DNA from: Escherichia phage ECOP18
Length of the DNA: 64,000 nucleotides
Reading direction: 5' to 3' (one strand)
Sequence record: NC_105825.1
Shown piece after piece: positions 20,080-50,702 of this stretch. The position numbers were made by a program, and so were the translations under genes. Every line of letters begins with the position of its first letter. Position 1 is the stretch's first letter. The notes beneath the pieces are model-generated. The model worked only from the letters and a program-made list of their open reading frames with translations, was not told the origin of the DNA and did not search any database.

Positions 20080-20200
20080 ATTACCTCCATTAAGTCTTTT
20101 AAATTAACCTAATGTGGATGAATTTTATTATACATAGATTATTTACCTATATACAGAAAAACCCCAGACTACTTATTCAATAGCTGGGGTTTGTTATTAA

Positions 20201-20515
20201 TTACAGATCGGGGCGTTCATCTTCGAAACAGCCTGAGCTGATTCCTTCTCCGAATCCTACAAAGCCATCAAATTCATCATTTGAGATGCCCATAATCATC
20301 GCTTCCATTTTCCTGATCTCCGAGGTTTTCATGCCTGCTTTACTATTCTTATAGTACTTGCGAGGGTTCCCGCACATCCAACAAGAACAGATGCAAGGAG
20401 TAGTAGTGATAATACCTAACCGCTTAGGGCTTTCTTCATGTGGAAAGACTGTCCAGTACTTCTTGCGGTTGTTCTTCACACGTTGCCGGTGATGGCGTCT
20501 TAATGCTCGATCCAC
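20201..20515 (-). CDS. basic Cys-rich protein
   Basis: 104 aa; CICSCWMCGNP cluster. Confidence 0.45.
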   Translation of the reverse strand: MDRALRRHHRQRVKNNRKKYWTVFPHEESPKRLGIITTTPCICSCWMCGNPRKYYKNSKAGMKTSEIRKMEAMIMGISNDEFDGFVGFGEGISSGCFEDERPDL

Positions 20516-20596
20516 ACATTTCTCCTAAAACTTGGGAGATAAACGGAGTTTGCTCGACTACCTTACGTAGTTCGTAGAAACCGTACCCAAACCCCA

Positions 20597-20965
20597 TTAC
20601 ATCGCCTGAGTAAATGTACGACTAATAACATCGTTCTGCTGTTCACGCGTCAGTGCGTTAAAACGTACAGCATAGCCAGAGACACGGATGGTCAACTGAG
20701 GATATTTTTCAGGATGTTTCTGCGCATCCAAAAGCTGATCACAGCTTAACACATTGACATTTAGGTGCTGACCACCTTCGATTTGAGGGGCGACTTCCAC
20801 TTTGACTTCACGGAAGGCTTCGGGATCGAATTGTGGTGTGATACCTTCTAGATCTTCAACTAGAACTTTCTGTTTAAGTTCACCGTTGTCGGAGTATAGC
20901 TGAATAATCTGATTTTCATGAACAAGGTTAATTACGCCAGATTTAAGATTTTGATATGCTTTCAT
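20597..20965 (-). CDS. grcA: autonomous glycyl-radical cofactor (GrcA/YfiD-like)
   Basis: 122 aa; C-terminus [11 protein letters not shown]...[39 protein letters not shown] closely matches the GrcA / pyruvate formate-lyase C-terminal glycyl-radical domain, including RVSGY. Confidence 0.7.
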
Positions 20966-21007
20966 TAGATCTCCCCGATGTTAGAATTTGGCTCAGCTAT
21001 TTATTCT

Positions 21008-22060: not shown

Positions 22061-22090
22061 TTGGCTTCCCTCTCATTAATTTATATAAAT

Positions 22091-22119
22091 ATTATAACAA
22101 TAAATAAGAGAGAAAGCAA
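22091..22119 (-). promoter_or_regulatory. early sigma70-type promoter (TTGCTT-17-TATAAT)
   Basis: Same architecture. Confidence 0.6.
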
Positions 22120-22127
22120 ATGAATTT

Positions 22128-22295
22128 TTAATAAAGTTTAGTCACTTCATAAACTATACTACGAGATTCTTTATTACGTTCTATTAAATTAGAATATGCT
22201 TTTTCAGCTTCATTTTTAGTATTAAAGTCTATAACGTGGGAGGTATTCGCTCTATTTGATTGACTATACCAGATAACTACTAATAATTTAAACAT
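22128..22295 (-). CDS. hypothetical protein
   Basis: ORF track frame; start moved so it does not overlap the tRNA at 22310. Confidence 0.35.
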   Translation of the reverse strand: MFKLLVVIWYSQSNRANTSHVIDFNTKNEAEKAYSNLIERNKESRSIVYEVTKLY

Positions 22296-45731: not shown

Positions 45732-47606
45732 ATGAATCGCAATGAAGAACTAAAGTATAAAGAAATGCAGGCGTTAATTAGAAACTGCAAAGAGATTATC
45801 GAAGGGTCAGCAGATGAAGAGCTGCTGTTTAATAATGCCAATAAACCCTCAGAACGTTTCCCTACACAAAGGGATATGCTTGCAGGTGAATTGAGTAAGT
45901 ATCTGATTCTAGAAGAAATGCCCATTCAGATTCGAAATGCTCATATGATTGGAGATATTCATTTCCATGATGCTGACTATGCTGCATTAGGTATGACTAA
46001 CTGTTGTCTGGTAGCTCTGGAAGATATGTTGAAGAATGGTATGAAGGTTGGTAATGCTGAAATTAGCACTCCAAACTCTATCACTACTGCGGCAGCTATT
46101 ACAGCTCAGATTATCACTCAGGTTAGCTCCCATCAGTATGGTGGTACTTCTGTAGATCGCCTTGATGAAGTATTAGCCCCTTATGTTCGTAAATCCTATG
46201 ACAAAAATCATGCGTTTGCAAAACGTTGGACTAAGGATGAAGCCAAAGCATCCGTAATGGCTACGGAGATGACTGAAAAAGAAGTCTATGATGCTTGTCA
46301 GGGTCTAGAGTATGAAATCAATACGATGTTCAACTCTAATGGTCAGAGTCCATTTATTACCTTTGGTTTTGGTCTAGGGACTTCTTGGGAAGCACGTCTA
46401 GTACAGAAAGCAATACTGAAAGTACGTATGGATGGCTTAGGCATCAATAAACGTACAGCTATCTTTCCGAAACTGGTGTTTGTTCTGCGTGATGGCGTAA
46501 ATATGAAGCCAGGAGATGTTAATTATGACGTCAAGAAGTTAGCTATGAAATGTACTGCTGAACGTATGTATCCAGATTATATCAGCTATGATAAGGTTGT
46601 AGAAGTTACTGGGGACTATAAAGTTTCTATGGGCTGCCGTTCATTCCTAGCTGCTACAGAAGATGGTGAAACTGCCGGTCGTAATAACTTAGGTGTTGTT
46701 TCTGTAAACTTGCCTAGAATTGCTATCGAAGCTGAAGGAAATATTGACCTATTCTTTGATTTGCTTGAGCTACGTGTAGATACAGCATTAAAAGCGTTGG
46801 AGTGGAGAGTTGATCGCTTAAAATACATTCAAGCTAAAGCTGCACCCATCCTCTATATGTCAGGAGCCTTTGGGTTACGTTTGGGGCCTGATGAATATGT
46901 ATTCGATCATTTCTATAACCGTGCTTCTGTATCTCTAGGGTATATTGGTTGCCATGAAATGCTACAGTTCATGTTTGGCAAAGATGTAGACACAATGTCC
47001 GAGACCTGCATCAAGTTTGTTCAGCGTGTATTGCAGTACATGCGGGATAGAGTCGATCAGAAGAAGGAAGAAACTAAGTTAGGTTATAGCCTGTATGCTA
47101 CACCATCAGAATCCCTATGTGACCGTTTTTGTCGTCTAGACCGTGAATACTTCCCGGAGCATGAAGATATTCTGTCCAAAGGATACTACACTAACTCTCA
47201 CCACCTTGATGTAGAACGTAAAGTTGCTCCCAATGTGAAATTTGATTATGAATCTAACTTTACGCCGATTGCTTCTGGTGGATGTATTTCCTATGTAGAA
47301 CTACCGGATATGAAACGATTCCCAGATGCACTGGAATGGGTTATTAATTATGCTGCTAGTAAGGTTCATTACTTCGGTATTAATACTCCAGTGGATTCTT
47401 GTGGTAAATGTGGATTCTTAGGTGAAACAATAGCATCCGAAGATGGGTTTAAGTGCCCTATCTGTGGTAATCATGACCCTGAAACTCTTGAAGTAACTCG
47501 TCGAGTTTGTGGGTATCTTGGAAATCCGGGTGCTCGTCCATTTAACCCCGGCAAACAGCACGAGGTTATGGGCAGAGTGAAACATCAGGATATTCGAGCT
47601 AAATAA
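45732..47606 (+). CDS. nrdD: anaerobic ribonucleotide reductase (class III)
   Basis: 624 aa; C-terminal Zn-ribbon cysteines (CGKCGF...CPICG) and glycyl-radical motif RRVCGYLG. Confidence 0.8.
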   Translation: MNRNEELKYKEMQALIRNCKEIIEGSADEELLFNNANKPSERFPTQRDMLAGELSKYLILEEMPIQIRNAHMIGDIHFHDADYAALGMTNCCLVALEDMLKNGMKVGNAEISTPNSITTAAAITAQIITQVSSHQYGGTSVDRLDEVLAPYVRKSYDKNHAFAKRWTKDEAKASVMATEMTEKEVYDACQGLEYEINTMFNSNGQSPFITFGFGLGTSWEARLVQKAILKVRMDGLGINKRTAIFPKLVFVLRDGVNMKPGDVNYDVKKLAMKCTAERMYPDYISYDKVVEVTGDYKVSMGCRSFLAATEDGETAGRNNLGVVSVNLPRIAIEAEGNIDLFFDLLELRVDTALKALEWRVDRLKYIQAKAAPILYMSGAFGLRLGPDEYVFDHFYNRASVSLGYIGCHEMLQFMFGKDVDTMSETCIKFVQRVLQYMRDRVDQKKEETKLGYSLYATPSESLCDRFCRLDREYFPEHEDILSKGYYTNSHHLDVERKVAPNVKFDYESNFTPIASGGCISYVELPDMKRFPDALEWVINYAASKVHYFGINTPVDSCGKCGFLGETIASEDGFKCPICGNHDPETLEVTRRVCGYLGNPGARPFNPGKQHEVMGRVKHQDIRAK

Positions 47607-47705: not shown

Positions 47706-47987
47706 ATGAGCGAGTTGCTTCCTAAAGTAGATGTCTCCCATCTTGGAGAGCCTAGTGAAGAACGTAAGGCTCTAGATTGGTTGGGTGGATTTGATTATCG
47801 TCGTGTTGTTGCAACATGGAATGATAAGAAAGTTAAGAAGTTTCGGGTACATTATGTAGGTAAAGACAAGTGGCTCTGGATTGATTATGAAGAATCGAAG
47901 GGATCTACTAAGGCTGTGAAAATTTATCGTATGTATGGGTATTATTATGCCCACTGTGATAAGAATGAATTTACAGTACAGAACTAA
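47706..47987 (+). CDS. hypothetical protein
   Basis: ORF track 93 aa. Confidence 0.55.
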   Translation: MSELLPKVDVSHLGEPSEERKALDWLGGFDYRRVVATWNDKKVKKFRVHYVGKDKWLWIDYEESKGSTKAVKIYRMYGYYYAHCDKNEFTVQN

Positions 47988-48200: not shown

Positions 48201-48390
48201 GGGTTTAAACGCCGCTTTGGAAAACGCATTAATGCAGCACTGGGAAACTGGTTATAAGGATGGTGTTGAATCCTGCGCTACTATGTTAGAAGTTATTGCT
48301 AATACCTTAATGGAGAAAGGCAATAAAGAATTAGCTGAGCTATTAGACAGTATTGGGCAAAACTTCAGAGAACAGGTGAAAAATGCGTAG
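48169..48390 (+). CDS. hypothetical protein
   Basis: ORF track frame; start moved to MAFSKP with RBS ggaggag. Confidence 0.4.
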   Translation: MAFSKPMLPDKGLNAALENALMQHWETGYKDGVESCATMLEVIANTLMEKGNKELAELLDSIGQNFREQVKNA

Positions 48391-49210
48391 ATTAATTATT
48401 ATTAGCGGTGCAGGTTTGAGTGTTGAAAGTGGTGTACGAGCTTTTCGTACTGATACTGCTAGTGGTAAAGCACTGTGGGATGATTATGATCTAGAAGAAG
48501 TATGTAATATTCATGCCTTTCGTGGTAATTTTTATCATAAAACCCATATGTTTTACAACAAGCGTCGTGAAGAGCTAAAAACTGTTGAACCCAATCTTGC
48601 ACATTTGCGTATTGGTGAATGGTATAAACAATATCCAGGTCAAGTAGTAAACTTGACTACCAATGTTGATGACCTTATTGAACGTGCAGGCGTTCCACAT
48701 AGCGACATTCTGCACATTCACGGATATTTAAAAGAGGTTGTTGTAGCTGACAGCTACAATAGTAGTAATAAACGAATTATTGATGTTGGGTATAACTCTA
48801 TTGACCCAGATGATTATAAATGGGTTAAACCTAATGTAATCTTCTTTGGTGAGCATGCTCCAGCATATACAGAAATGTACAATGTTTTTGATGGTATTAC
48901 CAGTCAAGATATGATCATTGTGGTTGGTTGCTCTAACCAAGTAATTAACTTCTACTGGGAATTATTTCCTGTTCTTAATTTGACTGCTGCCAAATTAATG
49001 GTAGTTAACTACTATGATAGTGCCCTAGCGACAGAGCCAGGCTATCAAGGTATGACTCGTAGTGAGATGTACCAGTTGGAAGAACGCGGTGTCCCTTACT
49101 GGAGTAAAGGTGCGGTAGATGCTTTCAGTGATCCTGATTTTATTGCTCGTGTGGAAGCTCATTTAGAGGGTAGACCTTATATGCTGGGGAACAGACATGT
49201 CCATAGTTAA
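48383..49210 (+). CDS. Sir2-family (NAD-dependent) protein
   Basis: 275 aa; N-terminal IIISGAGLSVESGVRAFR matches the Sir2 GAG(I/L)S.ESG(I/V).(T/A)FR NAD-binding motif. Confidence 0.6.
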   Translation: MRRLIIISGAGLSVESGVRAFRTDTASGKALWDDYDLEEVCNIHAFRGNFYHKTHMFYNKRREELKTVEPNLAHLRIGEWYKQYPGQVVNLTTNVDDLIERAGVPHSDILHIHGYLKEVVVADSYNSSNKRIIDVGYNSIDPDDYKWVKPNVIFFGEHAPAYTEMYNVFDGITSQDMIIVVGCSNQVINFYWELFPVLNLTAAKLMVVNYYDSALATEPGYQGMTRSEMYQLEERGVPYWSKGAVDAFSDPDFIARVEAHLEGRPYMLGNRHVHS

Positions 49211-49379
49211 ATCTGTGTATACACATCCTGATGATATATTTGTATGGGCGGACGGTAGTTGGTGCTATCGCTGTGAGCTGTGGGAAATGGACTATAAATC
49301 CGATGACTATGGTGTTATATATGTTGATACGGTTGAGTATGATACGTTCTTAGAAAGGAACAAAGATGGAAATAAGTAA
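49197..49379 (+). CDS. hypothetical protein
   Basis: ORF track 60 aa. Confidence 0.4.
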   Translation: MSIVKSVYTHPDDIFVWADGSWCYRCELWEMDYKSDDYGVIYVDTVEYDTFLERNKDGNK

Positions 49380-49872
49380 TACTCCAATTATTTTTCTAGA
49401 CATTGATGGGGTGCTCAATTCGAGCATCTCCCACCATCATGCACCTGATGATGAAAAGATTTTCTTTGGAAGTGATTGGGTTTTCAAACCGCTTCTCAAG
49501 GCTTTTCAAGACTTTATTCGTTCTTCTCCAATAATGATTGTTGGGGTATCTTCATGGTTCTCTGTCAGGAATGAGATGGAGAACGTTCAGATTATGACCG
49601 GATTAGATCTTATCAATCGTTTTATTGGTACAACGGATTTTACTGGTGGTGGGCTATCTAGGGGTAATTCTGTTCTTCGCTTCGTTGAAAAGCATAAGCT
49701 CAAACATTGGTGTGTGCTGGATGATGCTGGTGCTATGATGTATCAGTACCCAACGGTTATAGTCAATGGTAGAACTGGAATAAACCTTCAAGATTTAAGA
49801 GCTGTTAGCTATATGTTAGAATTTAGTCCAGATCTTGAAATGTGTAAAGCTCTACAACAACTTAAGGTGTAA
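49366..49872 (+). CDS. HAD-superfamily phosphatase-like protein
   Basis: 168 aa; N-terminal FLDIDGVLN (DxDGV motif I). Confidence 0.5.
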   Translation: MEISNTPIIFLDIDGVLNSSISHHHAPDDEKIFFGSDWVFKPLLKAFQDFIRSSPIMIVGVSSWFSVRNEMENVQIMTGLDLINRFIGTTDFTGGGLSRGNSVLRFVEKHKLKHWCVLDDAGAMMYQYPTVIVNGRTGINLQDLRAVSYMLEFSPDLEMCKALQQLKV

Positions 49873-49874
49873 AT

Positions 49875-50300
49875 ATGTTCAATAATGTATTTTCTAAAGC
49901 TAACCCAATTTTGGTTAATTTTTGGCGTACTCTTCCAGCCAACCTGTATAATGAGGCTATTAACTCTTTGAAAATATGGTGTGAGAATAACGAAATCTCC
50001 TTTGCTTTTAAAGATGATATTGATGAGGCCCCTTGTATTGGTTTAATTGTTCAGGTAGAGGAGGGTCTTGAAGAGATTGTGGGCTGGAAAGAGTTAGACG
50101 AAATGGGCTTAGTTTTTGCGTTAAATTATAAGCTGTTTATGCCTGCTAAGCATCGCCTTGTTGTTAACTATAAAACTAGTGAATCTCCTGGTTTTCAGGT
50201 TAATGAACGTTATGGTTGGTCTTACTCACCGGAAGAAGTAAATGAGGGGATTCAGAAACTTCGACGTTTCGGGTATATGATCCCAGGTTTAACTGCTTAA
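49875..50300 (+). CDS. hypothetical protein, paralog A
   Basis: 141 aa; shares P/CIG, MGL(I/V)xALN(F/Y) and (I/M)PGL(N/T) segments with the next ORF. Confidence 0.55.
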   Translation: MFNNVFSKANPILVNFWRTLPANLYNEAINSLKIWCENNEISFAFKDDIDEAPCIGLIVQVEEGLEEIVGWKELDEMGLVFALNYKLFMPAKHRLVVNYKTSESPGFQVNERYGWSYSPEEVNEGIQKLRRFGYMIPGLTA

Positions 50301-50309
50301 GGAGGCAGA

Positions 50310-50702
50310 ATGGAACAAGTATATTGGCGTCAGATTGATCCTAGTTTGGTGAAGCGTGCGGAGAAGCTGCTACAACGTTGGTTGGGGGTAAGACAAGCCT
50401 CCTTCACTTTTCCGGAGCAGCAAATAGACGATCCCTGTATTGGTGTTTTCCTATCAGGCTACGCTAGGGAATGGGAATTGGATTGGAATGAGTTGTCTGC
50501 TATGGGTTTAATTGTTGCCCTAAATTTCTCTTTGTTACACCCACGTGGTTTGGCTATATGTCGTGTGCCCGATGATGGTTGTTCGCCCCATCTTTTACAG
50601 GTGGAAGATGATATTTTGGAGTACACTCCAGATATTCTCAAAGAAGCTAAAGAACAATTAAACCGTGTTGGGATCTATGTTCCAGGCCTGAATGATGAAT
50701 GA
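50310..50702 (+). CDS. hypothetical protein, paralog B
   Basis: 130 aa; tandem paralog of 49875-50300. Confidence 0.55.
   Translation: MEQVYWRQIDPSLVKRAEKLLQRWLGVRQASFTFPEQQIDDPCIGVFLSGYAREWELDWNELSAMGLIVALNFSLLHPRGLAICRVPDDGCSPHLLQVEDDILEYTPDILKEAKEQLNRVGIYVPGLNDE

What the first reader, a model, noticed from the sequence alone, without database searches (positions are those of the whole stretch)
20597..20965. Phage-encoded GrcA-like autonomous glycyl-radical cofactor
The 122-aa product ends in ...[39 protein letters not shown], which is nearly the C-terminal glycyl-radical domain of pyruvate formate-lyase / GrcA (YfiD). The same phage carries a class III anaerobic RNR (nrdD, 45732-47606) that itself depends on a glycyl radical, but no obvious activase. 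A phage spare-part radical domain could repair oxygen-damaged host PFL or its own NrdD.
Basis: partly seen in the sequence, partly recalled or inferred. Interest (0 to 1): 0.65.

Follow-up and report, generated by a model that had tools for sequence, protein, structure and literature searches.

The report
T5-like phage GrcA spare-part protein
This T5-like phage carries a small copy of the radical-bearing tail of the host enzyme pyruvate formate-lyase, most likely used to patch that enzyme after oxygen damage; the gene is real but already annotated in T5 relatives, and its T4 counterpart has been tested biochemically.

Summary
A 122-aa ORF on the minus strand (20597..20965) ends in a complete glycyl-radical domain. 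It is 77% identical to E. coli PflB residues 699-760 and 73% identical to E. coli GrcA, and it carries RVSGYAV with Gly97 aligned to PflB Gly734.

The window is a T5-like phage (Tequintavirus). The gene is T5.056. Several GenBank records already name it "autonomous glycyl radical cofactor GrcA" (for example DT57C and T5_ev212). It is 52% identical over its full length to T4 Vs.6/Y06I, one of only two spare-part proteins validated biochemically.

It is under strong purifying selection (dN/dS about 0.07). About 434 E. coli/Salmonella T5-like genomes carry it, against 437 with the helicase marker.

No radical-SAM activase is encoded in the window or in a close relative's whole genome. Activation must therefore rely on host PflA, and on host NrdG for the phage NrdD.

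The idea that it repairs the phage's own NrdD is not supported, because the two radical domains are not alignable.

One less obvious point emerged. In jumbo phages and Aeromonas T4-like phages the homologue sits inside the nrdD-nrdG cluster. This fits a link through formate, which PFL produces and class III RNR uses as reductant. However, a Klebsiella T5-like phage has nrdD without grcA.

Verdict: ordinary, already known.

The parts
20597..20965 (-). GrcA-like CDS (122 aa; orthologue of T5.056)
   Evidence: ORF; Pfam, NCBIfam, PHROG and PDB matches; 100% to 89% identical copies in T5-like phages; dN/dS 0.07 against the T5 allele.
20597..20785 (-). C-terminal glycyl-radical domain (residues 61-122 plus the stop codon), equivalent to PflB 699-760
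   Evidence: 48/62 identical to PflB. 38 invariant columns across phage GrcA, E. coli GrcA and PflB. In the AF2 model this part matches 6owr and 2pfl.
20666..20686 (-). RVSGYAV motif. The Gly97 codon (20675-20677) is the predicted radical site, equivalent to PflB Gly734 and GrcA Gly102.
   Evidence: Read from the sequence and the alignments.
20786..20965 (-). Divergent N-terminal half (residues 1-60). It aligns with other GrcAs only in a multiple alignment.
   Evidence: Identity is 17-18 of 54-59 aligned positions to T4 Vs.6 and E. coli GrcA. Gln5 is nearly invariant. NCBIfam GrcA matches only residues 50-122. AF2 predicts four beta-strands at pLDDT 74-79.
20971..20976 (-). Shine-Dalgarno GGGGAG, 5 nt before the ATG
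   Evidence: Read directly from the sequence.
20436..20597 (-). 53-aa ORF whose ATG overlaps the grcA stop codon (TAATG). It matches phrog_31464 and its coding status is uncertain.
   Evidence: DT57C annotates it with '????'.
20201..20515 (-). T5.055-like 104-aa basic, Cys-rich ORF (CICSCWMC), the last gene before the terminator. Function unknown.
20157..20189 (-). Rho-independent terminator, identical over all 33 nt to the terminator annotated in T5
   Evidence: T5 annotation, mapped by blastn.
22066..22131 (-). Homologue of T5 early promoter P11, the nearest annotated upstream promoter. The transcript would run through tRNA-Ile, tRNA-Met and small ORFs into grcA.
   Evidence: T5 annotation, mapped at 97% identity; tRNAs.
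45732..47606 (+). Context only: phage class III ribonucleotide reductase NrdD, with no nrdG next to it
   Evidence: Pfam. It keeps E. coli C175, M382, C384 and G681. No activase was found.

Best explanation
[quoted passage not shown] It is transcribed early, as the promoter-distal part of the tRNA-cluster operon. When oxygen cleaves PflB at its radical glycine, the small protein binds the cleaved enzyme. The host activase PflA then installs a radical on its Gly97. Its C-terminal domain replaces the lost PflB C-terminus and restores conversion of pyruvate to acetyl-CoA and formate. The phage supplies no activase, so it depends on host PflA. Shown here: the homology, motif conservation, purifying selection, gene context and absence of an activase. 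Inferred from the T4 and E. coli homologues: the activation and rescue steps. Inferred from background knowledge: the benefit to the phage, which is keeping anaerobic ATP and formate production running in a host that can no longer make new PflB or GrcA after T5 shuts off host expression and degrades host DNA.
For: The C-terminal 62 residues are 77% identical to PflB and 73% identical to GrcA, with RVSGYAV and the [11 protein letters not shown] strand intact. The protein is 52% identical over its full length to T4 Vs.6. T4 has a single GrcA-like locus, and T4 Y06I is one of the two validated spare-part proteins that PFL-AE activates and that rescue cleaved PFL (PMC8683613; PMC13450708). PHROG 1209 matches full-length at E=1e-46. 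Against the T5 allele there are 27 synonymous and 9 non-synonymous differences, giving dN/dS 0.07. The gene is present at 80% identity or more in 434 records, against 437 for the DnaB-like marker. It has a good RBS and lies between a mapped T5 promoter and terminator. No activase is encoded.
Against: No experiment exists for the T5-type protein. The NCBIfam GrcA equivalog score (120 bits) is below its 170-bit cut-off because residues 1-50 do not match. The N-terminal half is only about 30% identical to the E. coli and T4 proteins, and in YfiD that half matters for binding cleaved PFL and for activation. AF2 predicts a folded beta-meander there at moderate confidence, whereas YfiD's N-terminus is disordered. 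A Klebsiella T5-like phage does without the gene, so it is an accessory function.
Confidence: 0.8

Rival explanations
1. The protein belongs to an anaerobic dNTP-supply module. Its selected role would be to keep PFL producing formate, the reductant of the phage's class III ribonucleotide reductase, rather than to support energy metabolism in general.
For: grcA-like genes lie between nrdD and nrdG in three jumbo-phage contigs. They lie directly after nrdD-nrdG in Aeromonas T4-like phages, with the start overlapping the nrdG stop codon. The window NrdD keeps the Cys-Met-Cys-Gly residues of the E. coli enzyme. The E. coli and T4 class III RNRs use formate as electron donor (PMC4390871). Every phage lineage that I inspected with grcA also has nrdD.
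Against: In T5-like and T4-like coliphages the gene is not near nrdD: it is 25 kb away in this window, and there is no nrdD within 6 kb in about 54 loci. Klebsiella T5-like vB_Kpn24-P2 has nrdD but no grcA. About 2,900 phage records have nrdD against about 1,600 with grcA. Clustering could simply reflect co-regulation of anaerobic genes.
Confidence: 0.3
2. It is a spare radical domain for the phage's own NrdD.
For: NrdD is a glycyl-radical enzyme that is also cleaved by oxygen. Homologues are adjacent to nrdD and nrdG in some phages. Reviews state that spare parts for glycyl-radical enzymes other than PFL have not been excluded.
Against: There is no alignable similarity to the NrdD radical domain (E=5.7). 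The motif and flanks are those of PFL (RVSGYAV against RRVCGYLG). The sequence is nearer to PflB than to any other glycyl-radical enzyme.
Confidence: 0.03
3. It modulates or hijacks host metabolism in some way other than repair. For example, it could titrate PflA, or activate intact but radical-free PflB or TdcE to shift fermentation fluxes.
For: [quoted passage not shown] The divergent N-terminus could change partner recognition. Some records label the gene 2-ketobutyrate formate-lyase, although that is an annotation habit and not evidence.
Against: Conservation is highest exactly in the parts needed to rebuild the PFL active site. The T4 homologue behaves as a repair part.
Confidence: 0.1

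Closest known systems
Bacteriophage T4 Vs.6 / Y06I (autonomous glycyl radical cofactor)
   Same: A stand-alone protein of about 120 aa from a virulent coliphage. It is 52% identical over the full length, with the same MKAYQ start and the same radical domain. It is encoded as a single-gene insertion with no shared neighbours.
   Different: The N-terminal halves are only about 31% identical. The last 45 residues of T4 are identical to E. coli GrcA, while the T5-type tail ends TFTQAM like PflB. T4 encodes its own NrdG and T5-likes encode none. Y06I has been tested biochemically and the T5 protein has not.
E. coli GrcA (YfiD), PDB 6owr, NCBIfam TIGR04365
   Same: Same size and architecture. It is 73% identical over residues 51-122. 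Foldseek finds 6owr as the best hit for the model.
   Different: The N-terminal 50 residues are not detected by pairwise or profile search, and the score is below the equivalog cut-off. The gene is phage-encoded and sits in an early tRNA operon rather than under host control.
E. coli pyruvate formate-lyase PflB, C-terminal domain (residues 699-760)
   Same: 77% amino-acid identity and 78% nucleotide identity over 186 nt. It is the best E. coli DNA match.
   Different: The phage protein has none of the 700-residue catalytic barrel with Cys418/Cys419. GenBank labels such as 'pyruvate formate-lyase' or 'acetyltransferase-related' for this gene are therefore misnomers.

Membership tests
GrcA/YfiD autonomous glycyl radical cofactor | Small stand-alone protein (about 115-130 aa), not fused to a catalytic barrel | tested here: met
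   The ORF is 122 aa and bounded by stop codons. There is no match to PflB residues 1-698.
GrcA/YfiD autonomous glycyl radical cofactor | C-terminal PFL-type glycyl-radical domain with RVSGYAV, with the Gly aligned to PflB Gly734 | tested here: met
   Gly97 is invariant in 37 homologues.
GrcA/YfiD autonomous glycyl radical cofactor | Strand duplicating PFL beta10 (the [11 protein letters not shown] region) ahead of the radical loop | tested here: met
   Sequence invariant across GrcA, PflB and the phage proteins. Its role is described.
GrcA/YfiD autonomous glycyl radical cofactor | N-terminal region of about 60 aa homologous to GrcA | tested here: inconclusive
   It aligns in a multiple alignment with a near-invariant Gln5. 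It is not detected by HMM or BLASTP, and identity is about 30%.
GrcA/YfiD autonomous glycyl radical cofactor | NCBIfam TIGR04365 equivalog trusted cut-off (170 bits) | tested here: not met
   120.2 bits, with the match limited to residues 50-122. This cut-off defines the bacterial equivalog, not the wider family.
GrcA/YfiD autonomous glycyl radical cofactor | Radical installation by PFL activase and rescue of oxygen-cleaved PFL | not testable with these tools
   Shown only for E. coli YfiD and T4 Y06I.
Pfam PF01228 Gly_radical | Score above the gathering threshold | tested here: met
   63.1 bits against 22.2.
PHROG 1209 (phage Vs.6-like proteins) | Full-length profile match | tested here: met
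   E=1.3e-46, residues 1-122 on profile positions 1-121.
Full-length formate C-acetyltransferase (PflB/TdcE), as some records annotate the gene | Ten-stranded barrel with the catalytic Cys418/Cys419 | tested here: not met
   Only the last 62 residues of PflB are matched.
Hypothetical spare part for class III RNR | Radical domain resembling the NrdD C-terminus (RRVCGYLG and its flanks) | tested here: not met
   BLASTP E=5.7 against the phage's own NrdD.

The most novel reading that the evidence does not exclude
Phage grcA genes are not general housekeeping helpers. They would be the third component of a phage anaerobic DNA-precursor module (NrdD, NrdG, GrcA). By keeping host PFL alive through oxygen pulses, they would secure the formate that class III RNR consumes. 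The T5-type protein, with its own divergent N-terminal half and no phage activase, would be a lineage-specific solution that relies entirely on the two host activases.
Probability: 0.3. Interest if true: 0.45.

Novelty: already known. Interest (0 to 1): 0.15.

Why it matters
The gene is a clear example of a phage auxiliary metabolic gene that repairs a host enzyme rather than replacing it. For this window it adds nothing new. The gene is catalogued in T5 and its relatives, and the mechanism is known from T4 and E. coli. The only modest lead is the recurrent placement of homologues inside nrdD-nrdG clusters in other phage groups. That placement suggests a testable link, through formate, between PFL repair and anaerobic dNTP synthesis during infection.

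Tried and rejected
1. Search for a phage activase. tblastn with E. coli PflA, E. coli NrdG and Aeromonas phage NrdG against the window and the whole T5_ev212 genome gave only chance-level hits. A six-frame CxxxCxxC scan found one site, in the 104-aa ORF just downstream of grcA (20201-20515). I rejected it as an activase. It is too short for a radical-SAM fold, has no Pfam match, belongs to an unknown-function PHROG, and also occurs in Erwinia and Rhizobium phages.

2. Possible NrdG remnant. The ORF after nrdD (47706-47987) has a 22-aa match to NrdG residues 87-108. It has no Cys cluster, is absent at that position in T5_ev212, and is treated as chance.

3. Conserved neighbours. No neighbour of grcA is shared between the T5-like, T4 and Ah1 loci.

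4. Literature on the T5 gene. Four full-text searches found no paper discussing it.

5. Promoter and terminator scan. It gave nothing above background, so I used T5's annotated signals instead.

6. Strict co-occurrence of grcA and nrdD. This could not be computed, because only 60 rows per search are listed. I used counts and one whole-genome counter-example instead.

Full report
**The observation**

It is 122 aa, starts at ATG, and its C-terminus is as quoted. A GGGGAG ribosome-binding site lies 5 nt upstream (sequence).

The similarity is not a short chance match.
- Pfam Gly_radical scores 63 bits against a cut-off of 22.
- The best solved structures are E. coli GrcA (6owr, E=1.6e-29) and PflB (E=6e-26).
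- BLASTP gives 48/62 identities to PflB 699-760 and 54/74 to GrcA.
- In a five-way alignment, 38 columns are invariant. These include [11 protein letters not shown]-type residues and the whole of RVSGYAVRF.
- Gly97 (codon 20675-20677) is the counterpart of PflB Gly734.

**Where the window comes from**

The surrounding 3 kb is 98.6% identical to Escherichia phages SUT_E1520 and T5_ev212, and 452 phage records match it. The window is therefore a Tequintavirus (T5-like, Demerecviridae).

In the T5 reference genome the gene is T5.056, annotated [quoted passage not shown]. DT57C, T5_ev212, slur09, phiP4 and others call it "autonomous glycyl radical cofactor GrcA". Many other records mislabel it "pyruvate formate-lyase". 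The identification is thus already in the public record.

**Relation to validated proteins**

tblastn finds the protein in 1,581 phage records. Roughly 1,000 of these are T4-like phages matching over the full length at about 52% identity, including T4 itself at the vs.6 position between denV and regB. T4 has only one such locus, so this is Y06I.

Andorfer et al. state that YfiD of E. coli and Y06I of T4 are the only two validated spare-part proteins. Both are activated by PFL-AE and restore activity to oxygen-cleaved PFL, citing Wagner et al. 2001 (PMC8683613). A 2026 review repeats that formate-lyases are the only glycyl-radical enzymes with known spare parts (PMC13450708).

**Anatomy**

The C-terminal 62 residues are almost invariant among 37 phage and bacterial homologues. 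The N-terminal 60 residues are divergent.
- NCBIfam's GrcA equivalog matches only residues 50-122 and scores 120 bits, below its 170-bit cut-off.
- Identity to T4 Vs.6 or E. coli GrcA in this half is 17-18 of 54-59 aligned positions.
- The region still aligns in a multiple alignment, with a near-invariant Gln5.

This divergence matters, because in YfiD the N-terminal half contributes to binding cleaved PFL and to radical installation.

An AlphaFold model (mean pLDDT 70.6, pTM 0.39) gives the expected radical-loop hairpin and helices. Its best PDB matches are 6owr and 2pfl. It also predicts four beta-strands in residues 2-36 at pLDDT 74-79, whereas YfiD's N-terminus is disordered in solution. 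I treat that difference as a weak lead only.

**Evidence that the gene is functional**

Against the T5 allele (90% nucleotide identity) there are 27 synonymous and 9 non-synonymous differences, giving dN/dS of 0.07. All the non-synonymous changes lie outside the radical-loop region.

The gene is present at 80% identity or more in 434 records. The DnaB-like helicase of the same phage group reaches that identity in 437 records.

T5's annotated early promoter P11 maps to window 22066-22131, and its rho-independent terminator maps, identical over all 33 nt, to 20157-20189. Between them lie small ORFs, tRNA-Ile, tRNA-Met, grcA and the T5.055-like ORF. The gene therefore sits at the promoter-distal end of the early tRNA cluster.

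**Activase**

- nrdD (45732-47606) is flanked by PhoH, NrdA, a Sir2-like protein and a HAD protein, not by nrdG.
- tblastn with PflA and two NrdGs finds nothing credible in the window or in the whole T5_ev212 genome.
- The only CxxxCxxC in an open frame is in the 104-aa T5.055-like ORF. That ORF is too small for a radical-SAM enzyme and has no family assignment beyond unknown-function PHROGs.

The phage must therefore use host PflA for this protein and host NrdG for its NrdD. The NrdD is 53% identical to E. coli NrdD, with an identical VTRRVCGYLG site.

**Which enzyme is repaired**

The protein does not align with the phage NrdD radical domain (E=5.7). Its closest relatives among all glycyl-radical enzymes are PflB and GrcA. 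At the DNA level the best E. coli match is the 3' end of pflB, at 78% over 186 nt. Repair of NrdD is therefore unsupported. Repair of PFL, and possibly of the closely related TdcE, is the reading supported by homology.

**Link with nrdD in other phages**

- In Aeromonas T4-like phages Ah1 and Aeh1 the order is nrdD-nrdG-vs.6-nrdC-nrdH, with the vs.6 start overlapping the nrdG stop codon.
- In Klebsiella jumbo phage RCIP0023 the homologue starts 10 nt after nrdD.
- Among 80 IMG/VR loci, three jumbo contigs have nrdD-grcA-nrdG and two Aeromonas-type contigs have nrdD-nrdG-grcA. The 29 T5-like and about 25 T4-like loci have no nrdD within 6 kb.

E. coli and T4 class III reductases use formate as electron donor (PMC4390871). 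The window NrdD keeps the residues I recall as diagnostic of that type (C175, M382, C384 and G681 of E. coli; the assignment of their roles is from my own knowledge). PFL is the cell's formate source. A functional link through formate is therefore plausible, but it is an inference.

Against a tight coupling, the Klebsiella T5-like phage vB_Kpn24-P2 has nrdD (62% identical) but no grcA-like sequence anywhere in its 113 kb. In addition, nrdD-positive records outnumber grcA-positive ones by about 2,900 to 1,600.

**Why a virulent phage would carry it (inference from background knowledge)**

T5 degrades host DNA and shuts off host expression early. Neither the 170-kDa PFL dimer nor the host's own GrcA can then be resynthesised. 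A 14-kDa phage-made patch is a cheap way to keep fermentative ATP and formate production going through oxygen fluctuations.

**Verdict**

The feature is already known, both by annotation in T5-like genomes and by biochemistry on its T4 homologue. Interest is low. The T5-type protein itself remains untested, and the nrdD-adjacent arrangement in other phages is the only lead worth a follow-up.

Noticed in passing
L003:4522-5384; L014:2935-3788; L016:1604-3782; L046:4021-7058 (also L047, L048, L076, L093): GrcA-like genes lie inside or directly after the nrdD-nrdG cluster in Aeromonas T4-like phages and in 345-357 kb jumbo phages. In the jumbo phages the order is nrdD-grcA-nrdG. This suggests a functional link between PFL repair and anaerobic ribonucleotide reduction, possibly through formate.
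   Followed up: partly
window 20201-20515 (-): A T5.055-like 104-aa basic protein with CICSCWMC, the only CxxxCxxC in an open frame of the window, lies immediately downstream of grcA in the same transcription unit. It matches phrog_4499 and has no Pfam match. Homologues also occur in Erwinia and Rhizobium jumbo phages. It is too short for a radical-SAM enzyme and its function is unknown.
   Followed up: partly
window 20436-20597 (-): A 53-aa ORF starts at a TAATG overlap with the grcA stop codon and overlaps the T5.055-like ORF by 80 nt in another frame. Both are annotated in DT57C, one with '????'. Which of the two is translated in the overlap is unresolved.
   Followed up: no
L002:4001-4363 (T4 vs.6) versus L005:4067-4450 (E. 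coli grcA): The last 45 residues of T4 Vs.6 are identical to E. coli GrcA, while its N-terminal half is of the phage type. In neighbour-joining trees the two halves fall in different clades. This looks like recombination or gene conversion with the host gene. Cluster P0108 (900 members) similarly combines an E. coli GrcA N-terminus with a PflB-type tail.
   Followed up: partly
window 47706-47987 (+): The ORF just after nrdD has a 22-residue match to NrdG residues 87-108 (KKVKKFRVHYVGKDKWLWIDYE against KLVQRIRAECPGKDIWVWTGYK). It has no Cys cluster, and a different ORF occupies this position in T5_ev212. The match is probably chance, although a decayed nrdG remnant is not excluded.
   Followed up: partly
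window 45732-47606 (+); L011:2986-4812: T5-like coliphages carry two very different nrdD alleles at the same locus. The window type is 96-100% identical in about 385 records. A DT57C type is only 60% identical, even though DT57C's helicase is 99% identical. This suggests allelic replacement by recombination.
   Followed up: no
L098-L100 (Klebsiella phage vB_Kpn24-P2, whole genome): This Klebsiella T5-like phage has nrdD but no grcA-like gene and no activase. grcA is therefore an accessory gene within Demerecviridae.
   Followed up: yes
window 48383-49210 (+), 49366-49872 (+), 49875-50702 (+): Downstream of nrdD lie a Sir2-family protein, a HAD domain of the 'Swiss Army Knife' RNA-repair type, and two tandem DUF7415 proteins. 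None was examined further.
   Followed up: no
P0034; H47: Some T5-like records carry a shortened (67-aa, C-terminal domain only) or frameshifted copy of the gene. These are occasional decay or annotation artefacts.
   Followed up: no
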